Virus record (IMG/VR): IMGVR_UViG_2913147268_000005 | Strand: one strand, 5' to 3' | Source of the DNA: a virus | Lineage: Duplodnaviria; Heunggongvirae; Uroviricota; Caudoviricetes | Length of the DNA stretch: 64,000 nucleotides | Shown here: positions 1 to 18,000 of the stretch, in pieces | Numbering within the stretch: the first letter of the stretch is position 1 | Layout: each line of letters begins with the position of its first letter | Program-made: the position numbers

Positions 1-3000
1 ATGGCTTTGGCGCGACCGATGGCGAGCTGACCATGGATGTAACCCTGAAGGCGTATCAGATGCTGGCCCGCATGGCGTTACACCTGCACGCCATGCCTCC
101 ACATTATGACGCACTGACAACAGACAAAGACCGGAGGAACGAACCGGACACGGAGCTGCTGCCGGGCGCAATCCTTCGCCTGACCTGTGCGGAATGGTGG
201 AAACGCAAACTGTGGCTGTTACGTTGCGAGTGGAGAGAAGAACAACTCCGCGCCGCCTGTCTGGTTTCCAGAAAAACATCACCCTATCTGAGCCAGGACG
301 CGTTAAGCGAGTTTCGCGCACAGCGCGAGAAAACACGCGATTTCCTGAAAAGTTTCATGCTGGAAAATGAAGACGGGTTCACGATTGATCTCGAGACAGT
401 GTATTACGCGGGAGTAAGTAACCCGGTTCACCGTAAGGCAGAAATGATGGCCACCATGAAGGGACTGGAACTTCTGGCCGAAGCCCGTGGCGACAAAGCG
501 GTGTTTCTGACTGTCACCTGCCCGTCAAAATACCACGCCACAACGGAGAACGGTCATCCGAATCCCAAATGGAACGGGGCCACAATGCGCGACTCCAGCG
601 ATTACCTGGTTAACACGTTTTTTGCGGCGGTCCGCAAAAAACTGAACCGCGACGGCCTGCGCTGGTATGGCATCCGCACGGTGGAGCCTCATCATGACGG
701 CACCGTGCACTGGCATATGATGGTCTTTGCACATCCGGAAGAAATCGACACCATTGTGTCCCATACCCGCGATATTGCCATTCAGGAAGACCGCCACGAG
801 CTGGGCAATGATATTACTCCGCGCTTTAAGGTGGAGTATGTCGACGGCTCAAAAGGCACGCCAACCAGCTACATCGCCACCTACATCGGAAAGAACCTGG
901 ACAGCCGCGCCGTGGATGGCATCGACCCGAAAACGGGCAAGCCACGCGTGGACCACGAAACCGGAAAATCAATGGCCGAGAGCGTGGAGCGCGCCATCGG
1001 CTGGGCGCGCCTTCACCGGGTCCGTCAGTTCCAGTTCTTTGGCATCCCCTCCCGTCAGGTGTGGCGTGAACTGCGCCGCCTTGCCAGCCAGATGGCACGC
1101 AATCCGGAAGGCCCGCAACGGCTGAAAGATGATGCAATGGATGCGGTACTCGCTGCCGCCGATGCCGGGTGTTTTGCCACCTACATTGAAAAACAGGGTG
1201 GCGTGCTTGTTCCACGCAAGGACTACCTGATTCGCACCGCCTACGACCTCGCAGATGAGCTGAACGATTACGGCGAACAGAGCGTACAGATTTACGGGAT
1301 CTGGTCACCACTCATCGGGGAATCCTCCCGTGTGTGCACGCATCCGGATAACTGGAAGCTGGTAAGACGTAAACCGGAAGCGGAAGACAGCGCCCGCGAA
1401 AATGGTTTTGACCTTCAGGGCGGCCCTGCCGCCCCTTGGACTCGTGGCAATAACTGTCCCCGTGTACAGGAAACGGACAACAACGGGACAGAACAGCCGG
1501 AAGAACGGCCAGCACCGTGGCCGCAGCTCCCTGACGGCGTTGAAGTGAACGAATGGATGCGCTCACTGAAACGACACGAACGCCGGGCGCTGATGCGTTC
1601 GCTTCGTGACAAACAGGCAAAAAACAGCAGCGATGAAATGCAGAGCTGGACACAGAGCCGCAAACAGCAGCGGCCTTTGCCTGATAACCACGAATTACTC
1701 GCTAAAGAATGGCGGGAGTCTGCTGAATCTCTCGGCCTGCATATCGGTGAACAACAGATGCAGCACCTGTTACGGGGCGGCAGTCTGTACGTTGACGGCA
1801 GCATCATTGCACCGCAGGGATTTGAAATTGTACGCAAACCGGATACCCGCCCGGACAGCCGAATCACGCAGCTCTGGCAGCGCCTGAGCCGTAATCATGG
1901 CGTAAGCAGCACGGAGATCCGCCATAACCCGGTCGCCAGCTATCTGGCACAGCTGGGGGCATCAGACCCTGAAGCCGCCGCACGCCTGGCATCCACACTT
2001 CAGCAGGGCCAGAACACCATGAAAACACCCGTTACCGTGCTTTCTGACATGCTGCGCGCCATCCGCGACGCAGAGCACGCACAGAGAATCAGTGAAACCA
2101 CTGAACGCGCCAGCCGCAAAGCAGACCTGCTGCGGGGTGGCCTGACCAGTGGAAACAAAAAACAGACAGAAACGGGACTTACGAATCCCGTAAATGAGCA
2201 AAAAACGCGCAGCGATATATGAAGCGCGCACAAAACAGGCAAAAACGGGATTTCAGAATCCCGTAAACGATTAATTAATCAACATAAGGAAAAGCGACAT
2301 GAAAATTTGTATCGACGACGGCTCCACCAACATCAAGCTGGCATGGACTGAGAATGGCGAACGCCGCAACGCCATCAGCCCGAACAGCTTCAAGTCGGAA
2401 TGGTCTGCGCCGTTCGGTGGCATGCAGCCCGCGAACTACATGCTTGATGGCGTGCGCTATGGTTTTGATCCGGTTAGCGATCGCTTTGTCCAGACGACCG
2501 ACACGCAATACCAGTACAGCGATGTGAATGTAATCGCCATTCATCACGCGCTGGTCAAATCAGGCATCACGCCACAGGAGGTGGATGTGGTTGTCACCCT
2601 GCCACTGAGCGAGTATTTCGACACAAACGCACAGCCGGACATGGCCAACATCAACCGCAAAAAAGCGAACGTTATGCGCCCGGTGGAATACCAGAACGGC
2701 GAAGCATTCACTATCCGTAACGTGCGGGTTATGCCTGAATCCATTCCGGCTGGCTTTAAAGCACTGGCTGACATGAGTCCGTTTGAATCCCTGCTGATTG
2801 TGGATTTAGGCGGAACCACGCTGGATGTGGCAAAGGTTCAAGGGCAACTGGCAGGTATCAGCCAGGTGTTTTGCGATCCACACGTAGGCGTTTCCCTGAT
2901 GGCCGATGCCGTACTGTCGGTGATGGCCACTAACGGTATGCGCACCAGTCACCACATCGCCAATACCATTATCGAACATCGCCATGATGAAGCCTGGCTG

Positions 3001-15000: not shown

Positions 15001-18000
15001 GCGACAACGTTTTCTTTGTGCCGTTCCTGACCGATGGTAGTGGCAACAATACCTCCACCAACGCACCAACGGAAGATCCGGATGCTGCAAGTGAGGGATA
15101 TTACGGTTCGGCATCCCGAACGAACAAAAACTGGGTATCATCAAATCGCCAGACGCATTTCAGCTCATGGGCGCGTCGTGGCATTATTCCCGATCGTATG
15201 GCAACCGCTATTCTGAACGTAGCCGGTCGCACCTTAGCCTTCATCAGTGGTAAGGCACCGGAAATCAAACCCTCGCCCGGCGGCGACACGCCATCGGGGC
15301 CCGGTGACCAGACCGAACAGATTGGACACCGTCAGCGACGGTCTGGCACTGCTGCCCTTCCCGCTCATCTCAAAACCGCTGCCGTCAATCGGGTATGCCT
15401 GATATTGCCGCCCCTGCCAGGTGACCGGCTCCCCTTTTTCATTCAGCTCATTACAGAAAAAATACCGCTCACCGCCCTGTACCGTCAGGTCGATTTCCCA
15501 GAGTACCACCCGCGGTGACTGCTCTGACTTAACCGACTCGTTCAGACTTTCTTCGCGAATATCCTGCATCAGTTCACCACCTGCTCAATCGTACAACTGA
15601 AATCACTGTGCCTGGCGTTATCTGTGACGCTCCACTCCCGGCACACCACCCTCACCGTCAGGTTATGTTTCGGCGGTCGCCACAAAAAGGCACGGTAACC
15701 ACCATGCCACGATAAAAATTCATCCAGCCAGCGCCGGGTTGGTTCATCCGTCACCCGGAACACCGCCTGAAACGTCTTCAGTCTGGCATTAAGTCCCGTC
15801 GGTCGGCGCTGTTCATAACCGTCACCAAACCGAACCCTCACCACCGACGGTTTCTCACTCACCTGCATCCCTTCACGCGGGACCAGATGCAGCGTTTTTA
15901 TCTCAGCCACTCAGCATTCCTCCGTCACGTCGCATGGACAGCATCACCGCCTGCACCCGCTGGTCAATCAGCTGCACAAGACTGCCTGCCGCCTCCGCCC
16001 CTATCTGTCCGTTAGCCCCGTCATTCTGAATGGCGATGTGGTAGACCGGGGAATACACCAGACCGGCACTGCCGTTCATACTGCCCACCGCGCGTACGCC
16101 CAGCGAGCCATCCGCCGCCCGGGTCAGGGGCATAATGGCTTCAGGTCCGGCTTCCCCCATCAGCCCGGCCCCTTTTGCAAACGCAAAGTACGTGGGCGTG
16201 TCCACAATGCTGTTGCTGTACGCACTCAGGTTTGCCGAGGTATACACGCCGCCTTTTGCATTGGCCACCGCACCGCCCAGCCAGTCACCAATGCTGCCAA
16301 TAAATCCTCCCGCACCGGACATACCGTTTGCCGCCGTCTTAATTCCGTTGACAATCGCAGCATTCATAAGAACTTTTGAGATTTCCTGCAGTACGGATGA
16401 GGCCCAGTTGCGCCATTCCACTTTGTTTCCGTTCAGCATCTCCGTGATGTTATTCACCATCCCTGAGATACCCTCCGTCGCAAGCTGTGCTGCCTGTGAG
16501 GCGTAATCGGATGCATTGTCCACCCAGTTACTGAGCCCCTCCTGCAAGCCTTTCTGCCAGTCCGCACGCTGCGCATCCGATTCGGCATAAAAGGCTGCCT
16601 GGTCCTTAAGGCGTTCGCTCAGATACTGCGCGTTCTGTGCCCGTGCCTGTCTGTAAAAATCCTCACTGATATCCCCGGTCTGATACTGAGACTGAAGGTC
16701 CGCATCCTTCTGGCGGAAGCTGTCACGGATCTGCTGCAACTCCCGCATGCGTTCCCTGGCTCGTTCTCCCTGCCCGTATCCCAGCAGTTCGGCTTCATTT
16801 GATGCACGCGCAGCCACATTATCATTCTTCAGGGTCTCTTCCCGGGATCGCAACTGTTCCCGGATTTTTTGCTGGTCAATCAGGGCCGCGTTACGCAGCA
16901 GTTCCTGCTTCTGCATCTCCGTCAGGGTTTTCAGTTCGCCCTGCGCAGTCTGGTACTTCAGCTTCGCCAGCTCTGTATTCTGACCCGCCAGTGCCAGTTG
17001 CTCTTTCTGCTGCTTCAGTAGCCGGGAAAAACTGTCTTCCGCTTTTTCCGTCTCTGATTTTCCACCCCGGGATTTAGGTTTGTTCGCCTCGTTATTACGC
17101 CAGGCTTCCAGAGCATTACTGATATAACGCTGTCTCGCCTCCTGATACGAATCCCCCACAAAACCAAGGTCATCCGCCGCATACCCCAGCCGGGCACGCT
17201 CTTTTTCCTCCCCCTTCAGTCGGGACAGGGCCAGCTCACGTTCTGTTTTTGTCAGGGCGCTCTGCTGTTTATCATCCAGGGTGGCCTGCGGCAGCCGTAA
17301 CGGTACATTCACCAGTCCCTGACGCTGCTGAAGCAGTTCATTCCCCAGCCCCAGCAGACGGTTGAATTCCGTATGCTGACCGTTCATAACCAGCATGGAC
17401 TGGTACACCTTATTCTGCTCTGCCGCCTGCTGACGAATTAACGCCACACGACGGTCTTCCAGCCCGGCAAGCACATCCTGAATGGACTGCGCTTTTTCCT
17501 GCATCTGTGCCAGACGGGACTGCTCAACGGCAAGCTGCTCTGTTGCCTGAGAAAGCCCTTCCGTCACGGTCTTCACCGATGTCAGATGGTTTATCATGAA
17601 TCCGTCACCGGTTGTCCAGCCAGGGTTAGCCAGAACATACTGATATCCAGCGATTTTTTCCTGCAGGGATTTCACCCGGCTGGCCTGTTCATCAATCAGC
17701 CGGTTCTGCTCTGCCAGCGCCGCCCGTGTTCGTCCTTCATTATCTGAGGCTTCAGGCAAAGACATTGACGGCGTTTTATGCGCGATTTCATCTATCGTCA
17801 GTGCATACTGGCGCGCTGACTCCCTGGCCTGCTCCTGATTCTGGTACAGCGTATACCATGCTGCTGCCCCCAGCATCACCAGTCCGGGTACGCCACCAAC
17901 CAGTCCCAACGCACCAGTCATCAGACGTGAGCCCACCGCCGTTGTACTGTTCAGCTCATTCTGGGCTGCGGTTCTGGCAGCAATATTTCTGTTCAGGCGT

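What the first reader, a model, noticed from the sequence alone, without database searches (positions are those of the whole stretch)
1..15303. P2-like prophage lacks its tail genes and abuts a lambdoid prophage
After the P2-like lysis genes the expected tail/baseplate genes are absent. The sequence runs through the esterase fragment straight into the reversed lambdoid tail gene L. The P2-like element is therefore a truncated remnant or the join is artificial.
Basis: inference. Interest (0 to 1): 0.45.

Follow-up and report, generated by a model that had tools for sequence, protein, structure and literature searches.

The report
Contig join, not a truncated prophage
The P2-like prophage seems to lose its tail genes only because two short-read assembly contigs were placed end to end at 15301/15302, so this is an assembly artefact, not biology.

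Summary
Bases 1-15301 are 100% identical to the P2-like (P88/Xuanwuvirus-type) prophage Phi1 of E. coli ST131. They stop at nt 1247 of a 1878-nt esterase gene. Base 15302 lies inside the lambda-type tail gene L, at nt 268 of 699, on the other strand.

The join is not biological.
- It is absent from all 5,426 complete E. coli genomes. A 37-mer across the join is absent from IMG/VR, JGI metagenomes and GTDB representatives. The parental sequences at both sites are common.
- The window is a scaffolded draft. It has four N runs, overlapping contig ends, and F-plasmid, IS and island fragments inside a "prophage".
- Both sides of the join are de Bruijn-graph contig ends for k=57. The left block ends exactly 56 nt after the last SNP separating the Phi1 esterase from its 99.5%-identical lambdoid paralogue. 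The right block starts exactly 56 nt before the first SNP separating this L allele from the commonest other allele. Four other block ends in the window also fit this 56-nt rule.
- Two independent GenBank short-read contigs break 4 nt away.
- A 159-nt block at 34239-34397 carries the Phi1-specific tail-fibre allele, so Phi1 tail DNA exists in the source genome.

Verdict: artificial join; the prophage is probably intact.

The parts
1..15301 (+). Contig block A: the replication, partition, head and lysis half of the P2-like (P88/Xuanwuvirus-type) prophage, EC958 'Phi1'. Genes: gpA 1-2222 (5' end cut by the window), parM 2299-3258, portal 6303-7349(-), terminase 7349-9100(-), scaffold 9255-10091, P2-family capsid 10115-11167, terS 11213-12013, head completion 12115-12609, gpX 12609-12809, holin 12812-13135, M15 endolysin 13132-13524, LysB-like 13521-13916, LysC 13798-14058.
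   Evidence: 100% identity over 15,301 nt to EC958 and many other ST131 chromosomes. 96.8% identity to phage P88 over 1-14002. Pfam domains.
14055..15301 (+). 5' two-thirds (nt 1-1247 of 1878) of the prophage cargo gene for a DUF1737-SASA-DUF6645 carbohydrate esterase. It is cut at the contig end.
   Evidence: EC958 annotates the intact gene as WP_000202148.1, locus L001 31055-32932. Pfam finds SASA and DUF1737 but no DUF6645. P88 lacks this gene.
15099..15301 (.). Start of a ~750-bp repeat (window-equivalent 15099-15851) that is 99.5% identical between the Phi1 esterase gene and the lambdoid (Phi4) esterase gene of ST131. The last Phi1-specific SNP before the break is at 15245, and block A ends at 15245+56.
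   Evidence: Three-way alignment and SNP list. In 25 public loci the nearest mismatch lies exactly 56 nt from the end of block A.
15301..15302 (.). The blunt join between two unrelated contigs. Only 2 nt (CC, 15300-15301) are shared by the two parental sequences.
   Evidence: No place in 5,426 complete genomes covers even 80% of a 1.2-kb query centred on the join. The chimeric ORF is not on record. The junction 37-mer has 0 hits in GTDB representatives, JGI metagenomes and IMG/VR.
15302..15569 (-). First 268 of 699 nt of the lambda-type minor tail protein L gene, cut at the contig start.
   Evidence: EC958 L gene at locus L002 14570-15268. Pfam Phage_tail_L positions 3-62 of 206. The block starts 56 nt before the first SNP (window-equivalent 15358) that separates it from the commonest other L allele. 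By the counts-39 of the 77 IMG/VR loci holding the native L sequence carry that allele.
15302..31805 (-). Contig block B1: late region of a lambdoid prophage of the EC958 'Phi4' type. It holds L', M (15569-15910), tape measure H (15903-19145), tail tube and head-tail genes, portal (22137-24722), capsid (24934-26871), terminase (26935-28596) and lysis genes.
   Evidence: 99.99% identity to EC958 1473935->1457430; Pfam domains.
31806..32045 (.). Scaffold gap of 240 N. The reference has 313 nt here, so this is an estimated gap and not a mask.
32046..33236 (-). Contig block B2: holin region and the 3' tip of the Phi4-type esterase gene. It ends exactly 56 nt after a SNP that separates it from block B3.
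33237..33246 (.). 10-N scaffold gap between two contigs whose ends overlap by 103 nt with one mismatch.
33247..33939 (-). Contig block B3: 3' part (DUF6645 domain) of a third esterase allele. It is 94.9% identical to the Phi4 copy and 92.6% to the Phi1 copy. Its end at 33939 lies exactly 56 nt from its first allele-specific SNP. Its last 68 nt are an inverted near-copy (66/68) of 15234-15301.
34239..34397 (-). 159-nt unitig of a tail-fibre gene. It is 100% identical to the copy inside the P2-like prophage (EC958 locus L001 40028-40186). It differs at three SNPs (34295, 34300, 34341) from the Phi4-adjacent copy. The block runs exactly from first SNP-56 to last SNP+56.
33940..48557 (.). A string of unrelated repeat fragments joined bluntly. 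It includes hok (34041-34229), an internal ISEc8 fragment (34397-34851), F-plasmid leading-region genes psiA (35723-36442) and psiB (36439-36876), a truncated IS100 (38002-39648), a genomic-island piece (40368-46338) followed by a re-entry into the same piece (46338-46850), a 10-N gap (47406-47415) and the left end of ISEc8 (47416-48561).
   Evidence: One search gives 99.7-99.9% identity to conjugative E. coli plasmids.
48558..64000 (-). Early region of the lambdoid prophage, from Q antiterminator to exonuclease, with a 238-N gap at 59234-59471. Then an integrase (61942-62967, +), tRNA-Ser(CGA) serU (63020-63109, -) and mtfA (63164-64000, +).

Best explanation
The boundary at 15301/15302 is where two contigs of a short-read de Bruijn-graph assembly (k = 57) were placed end to end without a spacer, in a scaffold or pseudomolecule. 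It is not a junction in the bacterial chromosome.

Why contig A stops. It runs from the chromosome through the P2-like prophage (EC958 'Phi1'). It stops inside the esterase cargo gene because that gene shares a ~750-bp, 99.5%-identical repeat with the esterase gene of lambdoid prophages in the same genome. The assembler could follow the Phi1-specific path only to the last 57-mer containing the last Phi1-specific SNP (15245 + 56 = 15301).

Why contig B1 starts. It begins in gene L at the first 57-mer containing the first SNP that separates this L allele from another lambdoid prophage's L allele (15358 - 56 = 15302).

In the real genome the Phi1 esterase gene most probably continues into the normal P2-type tail and baseplate cluster, as in EC958. 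L most probably continues into K, I and J.

What is shown: the breakpoint positions, their exact 56-nt offsets, the draft nature of the window, and the absence of the join elsewhere. What is inferred: that the paralogous alleles are present in the unseen rest of the source genome, and which program made the join.
For: 1. Intact reference. Window 1-15301 is 100% identical to ST131 chromosomes. In EC958 the same gene continues and is followed by R, S, V, W, J, I, H, G, the invertible fibre segment, tape measure, tube, sheath, D and ogr.

2. Uniqueness. No place in 5,426 complete E. coli genomes covers even 80% of a 1.2-kb query centred on the join. The 487-aa chimeric ORF is not on record among 153 billion gene positions. 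The junction 37-mer has 0 hits in GTDB representatives, JGI metagenomes and IMG/VR. The two native sequences at the same sites occur in 48 and 77 IMG/VR contigs.

3. Draft scaffold. There are N runs of 240, 10, 10 and 238 nt. The long gaps differ in length from the reference. One 10-N gap separates contig ends that overlap by 103 nt. The stretch 33940-48557 strings together F-plasmid psiA/psiB/hok, internal IS66 and IS100 fragments and a genomic-island piece, with blunt internal-to-internal joins.

4. k-mer arithmetic. The Phi1 and Phi4 esterase genes differ only at 15151, 15206, 15245 and 15404 within the repeat, and block A ends at 15245+56. The commonest alternative L allele first differs at window-equivalent 15358, and block B1 starts at 15358-56. 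The same offset of 56 holds at 33236, at 33939 and at both ends of the 159-nt block 34239-34397. In a blind tally over all fetched loci, the modal nearest-mismatch distance is exactly 56 at 15301 (25 loci), 15302 (39 loci), 33939 (25 loci), 34239 and 34397.

5. Independent assemblies break at the same place. GenBank ON470623 and ON470599 are labelled partial phage genomes. ON470623 is in fact a host-plus-prophage short-read contig (ycaO to dmsA, then the prophage) ending 4 nt beyond window-equivalent 15301, which is SNP+60 and fits k=61. ON470599's match stops at the same distance, 4 nt, from its record end.

6. Phi1 tail DNA is present. The 159-nt block at 34239-34397 carries the Phi1-specific tail-fibre allele, and its SNP-bounded ends imply that both alleles are in the source genome.

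7. Precedent. Forde et al. 2014 (PMC4134206) showed that Illumina/Velvet contigs ordered on a reference and concatenated misplace ST131 prophage and island contigs in just this way, in strain NA114 and in a simulated EC958 assembly.
Against: - There are no Ns at this join, whereas four other contig boundaries in the window carry Ns.
- The contig ends next to the two long N gaps (31805, 32046, 59233, 59472) do not show the 56-nt offset with the paralogues I had.
- The paralogous alleles that would create the graph branches (a Phi4-type esterase 5' part and a second L allele) are not in the window. Their presence is inferred from EC958 and from their frequency in public phage contigs.
- I could not identify the source assembly or its reads.
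- I cannot say why these two contigs were placed next to each other.
- Lambdoid contigs from the same UK study as ON470623 (ON470597, ON470625, ON470626) run through the L breakpoint. That break therefore needs a second lambdoid prophage which those strains may lack.
Confidence: 0.93

Rival explanations
1. Real truncated remnant. In this strain an illegitimate (microhomology) recombination or deletion fused the Phi1 esterase gene at nt 1247 to the lambdoid L gene at nt 268. This removed the P2 tail cluster and left a defective P2-like prophage abutting a lambdoid one.
For: The sequence as given reads straight through with no Ns and with a 2-nt microhomology, which is typical of illegitimate recombination. 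Defective prophages and prophage-prophage rearrangements are common in E. coli (general knowledge).
Against: - In every ST131 genome examined the two loci lie ~0.5 Mb apart and in an orientation where a deletion cannot produce this join. It would need a head-to-tail, duplication-type junction (coordinates).
- The join is absent from all public data searched.
- A real breakpoint has no reason to fall exactly 56 nt from paralogue SNPs on both sides, with the same offset as four other block ends in this window.
- A Phi1-specific tail-fibre allele is present in the window.
Confidence: 0.03
2. Real homologous recombination between the inverted ~750-bp esterase repeats of Phi1 and the lambdoid prophage. 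This would be a large chromosomal inversion that swaps the prophage halves, of the kind known between prophages in E. coli.
For: The repeat exists, is 99.5% identical and is inverted in EC958. The break in block A lies inside it. A 68-nt inverted near-copy of the end of block A sits at 33872-33939. A hybrid prophage at serU carrying Phi4-type late genes exists in strain 21319, so exchange between prophages does happen in this lineage.
Against: Such an inversion would give an intact hybrid esterase gene followed by holin, lysis, terminase and so on. The lambdoid block would be in the opposite orientation to that seen, and L would not be truncated. Here the esterase 5' part abuts the middle of L, and the esterase 3' part at 33247-33939 faces away. 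No complete genome shows either product at this site.
Confidence: 0.02
3. The splice was made after assembly for some other reason, such as manual editing or deliberate concatenation of prophage-containing sequences, and not by an assembler or scaffolder.
For: The join is blunt and has no Ns. The order of the blocks follows neither size nor any reference I could find.
Against: The blocks themselves are demonstrably de Bruijn unitigs bounded at SNP+-56. Whatever placed them side by side was therefore working on assembler output. This differs from the main explanation only in who did the concatenating. Both mean the join is artificial.
Confidence: 0.02

Closest known systems
Misassembled ST131 pseudomolecules: E. 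coli NA114 and the simulated 'EC958-sim' assembly (Forde et al. 2014, PLoS One 9:e104400, PMC4134206)
   Same: Short-read de Bruijn contigs of an ST131 genome break in prophages, genomic islands and IS elements. They are then ordered and concatenated, so that prophage and island fragments from distant loci sit side by side and look like rearrangements. The window shows the same picture: Phi1, Phi4, an island, IS and plasmid fragments in one 64-kb stretch.
   Different: I did not identify the window's source. NA114 was reportedly assembled from 54-nt reads, which cannot give the k=57 offsets seen here. The window is therefore probably another assembly of the same kind and not NA114 itself.
EC958 prophage Phi1, a P2-like Peduoviridae prophage related to Escherichia phage P88 (genus Xuanwuvirus)
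   Same: Window 1-15301 is 100% identical to it. Gene order and content match from gpA to the esterase. P88 is 96.8% identical over 1-14002, and the taxonomy was confirmed.
   Different: The window holds only the replication, head and lysis part. P88 has no esterase gene, and its lysis genes are followed directly by the tail genes. The window stops 1247 nt into the esterase gene.
EC958 prophage Phi4, a lambdoid prophage integrated at ompW
   Same: Window 15300-31805 and 48558-59233 are 99.97-99.99% identical to it, and 32046-33236 is 99.9% identical.
   Different: In the window, L is cut at nt 268. The 4-kb stretch from the esterase 5' part to the DNA methylase is replaced by 14.6 kb of unrelated fragments. 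The integrase end belongs to a serU/mtfA-integrated prophage, as in strains TUM14697 and 21319, and not to the ompW site.
Prophage-borne SASA-family esterases with the DUF1737-SASA-DUF6645 architecture (the 'NanS-p' type of lambdoid and Stx phages; that name is from my own knowledge and was not tested here)
   Same: The cut gene has DUF1737 and SASA domains. It is 82-86% identical at the DNA level to esterase genes of lambdoid and Stx phages.
   Different: Here the gene sits in a P2-like prophage between the lysis and tail genes. Enzymatic function was not examined.

Membership tests
De Bruijn-graph contig boundary (assembly artefact) | The block end lies exactly k-1 nt from the nearest SNP that distinguishes it from a paralogous copy, with the same k at other block ends of the same assembly. 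| tested here: met
   15301 = SNP 15245+56. 15302 = SNP 15358-56. 33236 = SNP+56. 33939 = SNP-56. 34239 and 34397 = first and last SNP -/+56.
De Bruijn-graph contig boundary (assembly artefact) | Independent short-read assemblies of related strains break at the same repeat. | tested here: met
   ON470623 and ON470599 end 4 nt past window-equivalent 15301. For the L side this was not seen in the three UK contigs available.
De Bruijn-graph contig boundary (assembly artefact) | The join is absent from finished genomes of the same lineage and from other public assemblies. | tested here: met
   No place in 5,426 complete genomes covers 80% of a query across the join. The junction 37-mer has 0 hits in GTDB representatives, metagenomes and IMG/VR. 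The chimeric ORF is not on record. Positive controls gave 48 and 77 hits.
De Bruijn-graph contig boundary (assembly artefact) | The surrounding sequence shows other marks of a draft scaffold. | tested here: met
   Four N runs, overlapping contig ends at a 10-N gap, and plasmid, IS and island fragments joined bluntly.
De Bruijn-graph contig boundary (assembly artefact) | No sequencing reads or read pairs span the join. | not testable with these tools
   Reads and the rest of the assembly are not available.
P2-like prophage (Peduoviridae, Xuanwuvirus/P88 type) | P2-type head module: a portal and large-terminase gene pair divergent from scaffold (gpO), P2-family capsid (gpN), small terminase (gpM) and head completion (gpL). 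| tested here: met
   Pfam Phage_cap_P2 E=1e-115, Phage_portal, Terminase_6N/6C/5. EC958 annotation at 100% identity.
P2-like prophage (Peduoviridae, Xuanwuvirus/P88 type) | gpA-type rolling-circle replication endonuclease. | tested here: met
   Pfam Phage_GPA E=9e-123 on ORF 33-2222.
P2-like prophage (Peduoviridae, Xuanwuvirus/P88 type) | High nucleotide identity to the type phage P88. | tested here: met
   96.8% identity over 72% of window 1-16000, ending at 14002.
P2-like prophage (Peduoviridae, Xuanwuvirus/P88 type) | Contractile tail and baseplate cluster (R, S, V, W, J, I, H, G, FI, FII, E, T, U, D). | tested here: inconclusive
   The cluster is absent from the window after 15301. It is present after the identical sequence in EC958 and in P88. 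Only a 159-nt Phi1-type tail-fibre fragment is in the window. The rest of the source assembly cannot be searched.
Genuinely truncated (defective) prophage remnant | The truncation junction is reproducible in related genomes, or is flanked by an IS end, an att site or a target-site duplication that explains the deletion. | tested here: not met
   No genome shares the junction. Neither side is an IS end or an att site. Both sides are mid-gene with only 2-nt homology.
Lambda-type tail module (gpH-gpM-gpL) | Tape measure, minor tail proteins M and L in lambda order. | tested here: met
   Pfam Tape_meas_lam_C/TMP_3, Phage_min_tail and Phage_tail_L (partial, positions 3-62 of 206). 99.99% identity to EC958 Phi4.

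The most novel reading that the evidence does not exclude
The join is real. In this one isolate an illegitimate recombination, for example the novel joint of a ~0.5-Mb tandem duplication or of an excised circle, fused the P2-like prophage's esterase gene to the lambdoid tail gene L. This would make a P2-head/lambda-tail composite locus. The 56-nt offsets on both sides would then be coincidence.
Probability: 0.03. Interest if true: 0.35.

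Novelty: not a real feature. Interest (0 to 1): 0.05.

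Why it matters
Taken at face value, the window suggests a defective P2-like prophage fused to a lambdoid prophage. It also suggests a lambdoid prophage carrying F-plasmid SOS-inhibition genes. Neither should be reported as biology.

The useful outcome is practical. Silent contig concatenations, with no N spacer, can be recognised from the sequence alone. Block ends sit at a constant k-1 distance from paralogue-distinguishing SNPs. The Phi1/Phi4 esterase repeat (~750 bp, 99.5% identical, inverted) is a recurrent break point in ST131 short-read assemblies. At least one GenBank 'phage partial genome' record, ON470623, is really a host-plus-prophage contig ending there, and ON470599 stops at the same point.

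Tried and rejected
1. I looked for the source assembly or any second occurrence of the join. I tried an exact-protein look-up of the chimeric ORF and the junction 37-mer in GTDB representatives, JGI metagenomes and IMG/VR. All were negative. Controls with the native sequences were positive.

2. I considered an esterase-to-esterase inversion. The repeat is real, but the predicted product has the opposite orientation of the lambdoid block and no cut in L. Rejected.

3. I considered a deletion between adjacent prophages. The loci are ~0.5 Mb apart in all ST131 genomes, and their orientation would need a duplication-type joint. Rejected as unlikely.

4. I tested whether L nt 268 is a general mosaic boundary among lambdoid phages. 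High-identity alignments mostly end at the L/M border (L002 15284-15287) and not at 15001. The explanation turned out to be a single SNP 56 nt inside the block.

5. I checked whether UK short-read contigs of the lambdoid prophage also break in L. They do not.

6. I tried the 56-nt rule on the 120-nt IS3 fragment at 35035-35154 and on the ends next to the long N gaps. There was no clean fit, probably because the true paralogues were not among my loci or the ends were modified by scaffolding.

7. I considered that the window is from strain NA114. Its reported 54-nt reads are incompatible with k=57, and the NA114 paper itself (PMC3147708) is not held.

8. I considered that the N runs are database masking. 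This is rejected because gap lengths differ from the reference and the flanks of a 10-N gap overlap.

Full report
OBSERVATION.

Window 1-15301 is 100% identical over its full length to a P2-like prophage found in several hundred complete E. coli genomes, most of them ST131. In strain EC958 this prophage lies between dmsA and serS. It is the element called Phi1 by Forde et al. 2014 (PMC4134206). The window carries these genes:
- gpA (33-2222) and parM (2299-3258)
- portal and terminase on the minus strand (6303-9100)
- scaffold, P2-family capsid, small terminase, head completion and gpX
- holin, M15 endolysin and LysB/LysC
- from 14055, a gene for a DUF1737-SASA-DUF6645 esterase

Phage P88 (genus Xuanwuvirus, Peduoviridae) is 96.8% identical up to 14002 but has no esterase gene. 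Its lysis genes run straight into the tail genes. The esterase is therefore cargo of the ST131 prophage.

Identity to EC958 stops at 15301, which is nt 1247 of the 1878-nt esterase gene. From 15302 the window is the reverse strand of a lambda-type tail region, 99.99% identical to EC958's lambdoid prophage Phi4. It begins at nt 268 of the 699-nt L gene and continues through M and the tape-measure gene. The two parental sequences share only the dinucleotide CC at the join.

THE SAME PROPHAGE IS INTACT ELSEWHERE, AND THE JOIN IS UNIQUE. In EC958 the esterase gene continues and is followed by a complete P2-type tail cluster: R, S, V, W, J, I, tail fibre, invertible segment, tape measure, tube, sheath, D and ogr.
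- A 1.2-kb query centred on the join finds no place covering even 80% of it in 5,426 complete E. coli genomes.
- The 487-aa chimeric ORF is not on record in a collection of 153 billion gene positions.
- A 37-mer across the join has no hit in GTDB representative genomes, JGI metagenomes or IMG/VR.
- As controls, the native esterase and native L sequences at the same positions occur in 48 and 77 IMG/VR contigs.

In ST131 chromosomes the two loci are about 0.5 Mb apart. Their orientation is such that only a head-to-tail, duplication-type joint could produce this join. A deletion or an inversion could not (coordinates).

THE WINDOW IS A DRAFT SCAFFOLD. It contains four N runs: 31806-32045, 33237-33246, 47406-47415 and 59234-59471.
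- The long runs differ in length from the reference: 240 N against 313 nt, and 238 N against 267 nt in TUM14697. They are gap estimates and not masks.
- The 10-N run at 33237 separates two blocks whose ends overlap by 103 nt with one mismatch.
- Between the late and early halves of the lambdoid prophage, 33940-48557 is a string of unrelated fragments joined bluntly. These are a hok gene; an internal piece of ISEc8; F-plasmid leading-region genes psiA and psiB (99.7-99.9% identical to conjugative plasmids); an IS100 cut inside istB; and a 6-kb genomic-island piece followed by a re-entry into itself.
- No complete genome has this arrangement.

BOTH SIDES OF THE JOIN ARE DE BRUIJN-GRAPH CONTIG ENDS. 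This is the central result.

In EC958 the Phi1 esterase gene and the Phi4 esterase gene share a ~750-bp repeat (window-equivalent 15099-15851). It differs at only four positions: 15151, 15206, 15245 and 15404. A de Bruijn assembler can follow the Phi1-specific path only to the last k-mer containing the last Phi1-specific base. Block A ends at 15301 = 15245 + 56.

On the other side, the commonest alternative allele of L is identical to the EC958-type allele up to L002 15056. It is carried by 34-39 of the 77 IMG/VR loci that hold the native L sequence, depending on the count used. It first differs at 15057, which is window-equivalent 15358. Block B1 starts at 15302 = 15358 - 56.

The same offset recurs at four other block ends:
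- Block B2 ends at 33236, 56 nt after the SNP that separates it from B3.
- Block B3 ends at 33939, 56 nt from its first allele-specific SNP.
- The 159-nt block 34239-34397 has three SNPs (34295, 34300, 34341) against the paralogous copy. It runs exactly from the first SNP minus 56 to the last SNP plus 56.

All of this fits one assembly with k = 57. A biological breakpoint has no reason to obey this rule, least of all on both sides at once.

INDEPENDENT ASSEMBLIES BREAK AT THE SAME PLACE. GenBank ON470623 and ON470599 are labelled partial phage genomes. ON470623 is really a short-read contig holding host genes ycaO to dmsA plus the prophage. It ends 4 nt beyond window-equivalent 15301, at SNP + 60, as expected for k = 61. 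ON470599's match stops the same 4 nt from its record end.

PHI1 TAIL DNA IS IN THE SOURCE GENOME. The 159-nt block at 34239-34397 is 100% identical to the tail-fibre copy inside Phi1 (EC958 locus L001 40028-40186). It differs at three sites from the copy next to Phi4. Its SNP-bounded ends imply that both copies are present. This is indirect evidence that the prophage is not truncated in the real genome.

RIVAL EXPLANATIONS.
- A real illegitimate fusion fits the uninterrupted sequence and the 2-nt microhomology. It does not fit the uniqueness of the join, the locus geometry, or the double 56-nt coincidence.
- A real inversion through the esterase repeat is plausible biology. The repeat is inverted in EC958, and a hybrid serU prophage with Phi4-type late genes exists in strain 21319. 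It would give an intact hybrid esterase followed by lysis genes, which is the opposite orientation of the lambdoid block, and an uncut L. That is not what the window shows.
- Whether an assembler, a scaffolder, a reference-ordering step or a person placed the two contigs together cannot be decided. Every such case is artificial.

WEAK POINTS.
- There are no Ns at this particular join.
- The ends beside the long N gaps do not show the 56-nt offset with the paralogues I had.
- Three UK contigs run through the L breakpoint. That break therefore requires a second lambdoid prophage in the source strain. The serU-type integrase at 61942-62967 hints at one but does not prove it.
- I could not find the source assembly.

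COMPARISON WITH KNOWN CASES. The closest precedent is the misassembly described for ST131 strain NA114 and reproduced with simulated EC958 reads. There, Velvet contigs ordered on a reference and concatenated misplaced prophage and island contigs (PMC4134206). The window is probably not NA114 itself, because NA114's reported 54-nt reads cannot give k = 57.

VERDICT. This is not a real genomic feature, and interest is low.

Noticed in passing
window 31806-32045, 33237-33246, 47406-47415, 59234-59471: Four runs of N (240, 10, 10 and 238 nt). These are scaffold gaps. The 10-N gap at 33237 sits between contig ends that overlap by 103 nt with one mismatch.
   Followed up: yes
window 34041-34229 and 35723-36876 (context about 34400-38000): F-type plasmid leading-region genes (hok, psiA, psiB and neighbours), 99.7-99.9% identical to conjugative E. 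coli plasmids, lie inside what looks like a chromosomal lambdoid prophage. They are most likely plasmid contigs concatenated into the scaffold.
   Followed up: partly
window 40368-46850: A 6-kb genomic-island piece (inovirus Gp2-family gene, ISEc20, HTH regulator) is followed at 46338 by a re-entry into its own start. In strain TO60 coordinates, L003 26601 is followed by 20178. This is a head-to-tail joint typical of a wrong path through an assembly graph.
   Followed up: partly
EC958 loci L001 32099-32851 and L002 (esterase genes); window-equivalent 15099-15851: The P2-like prophage Phi1 and the lambdoid prophage Phi4 of ST131 carry esterase genes that share a ~750-bp, 99.5%-identical segment in inverted orientation, about 0.49 Mb apart. 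This is a potential substrate for chromosomal inversion and a recurrent contig break point.
   Followed up: partly
GenBank ON470623.1 (locus L004); ON470599.1: ON470623, deposited as 'Escherichia phage vB_EcoM-705R2, partial genome', is a bacterial short-read contig. It holds about 11.5 kb of host genes (ycaO, focA, pflB, dmsABC) plus half of the prophage. ON470599 (vB_EcoM-569R5) matches the window with the same offsets, but I did not inspect its annotation.
   Followed up: yes
window 61942-64000: The lambdoid prophage body is EC958 Phi4-like, and in EC958 Phi4 is integrated at ompW. Its end in the window carries a different integrase next to tRNA-Ser(CGA) serU and mtfA, as in strains TUM14697 and 21319. 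This is either a real hybrid prophage at serU or another contig mis-join through the shared exonuclease gene, which contains a 238-N gap.
   Followed up: partly
window 3661-5040 (minus strand), GC about 0.33: A low-GC two-gene cassette lies between the partition genes and the portal gene of the P2-like prophage. It comprises a 280-aa protein with only a weak PADLOC hit (Csx27, E=1e-5) and a DUF4760 protein. It may be a cargo or defence hotspot. Function is unknown.
   Followed up: partly
window 2299-3577: The P2-like prophage carries a plasmid-type ParM actin-like segregation gene and a partner partition gene, as in phage P88.
   Followed up: no
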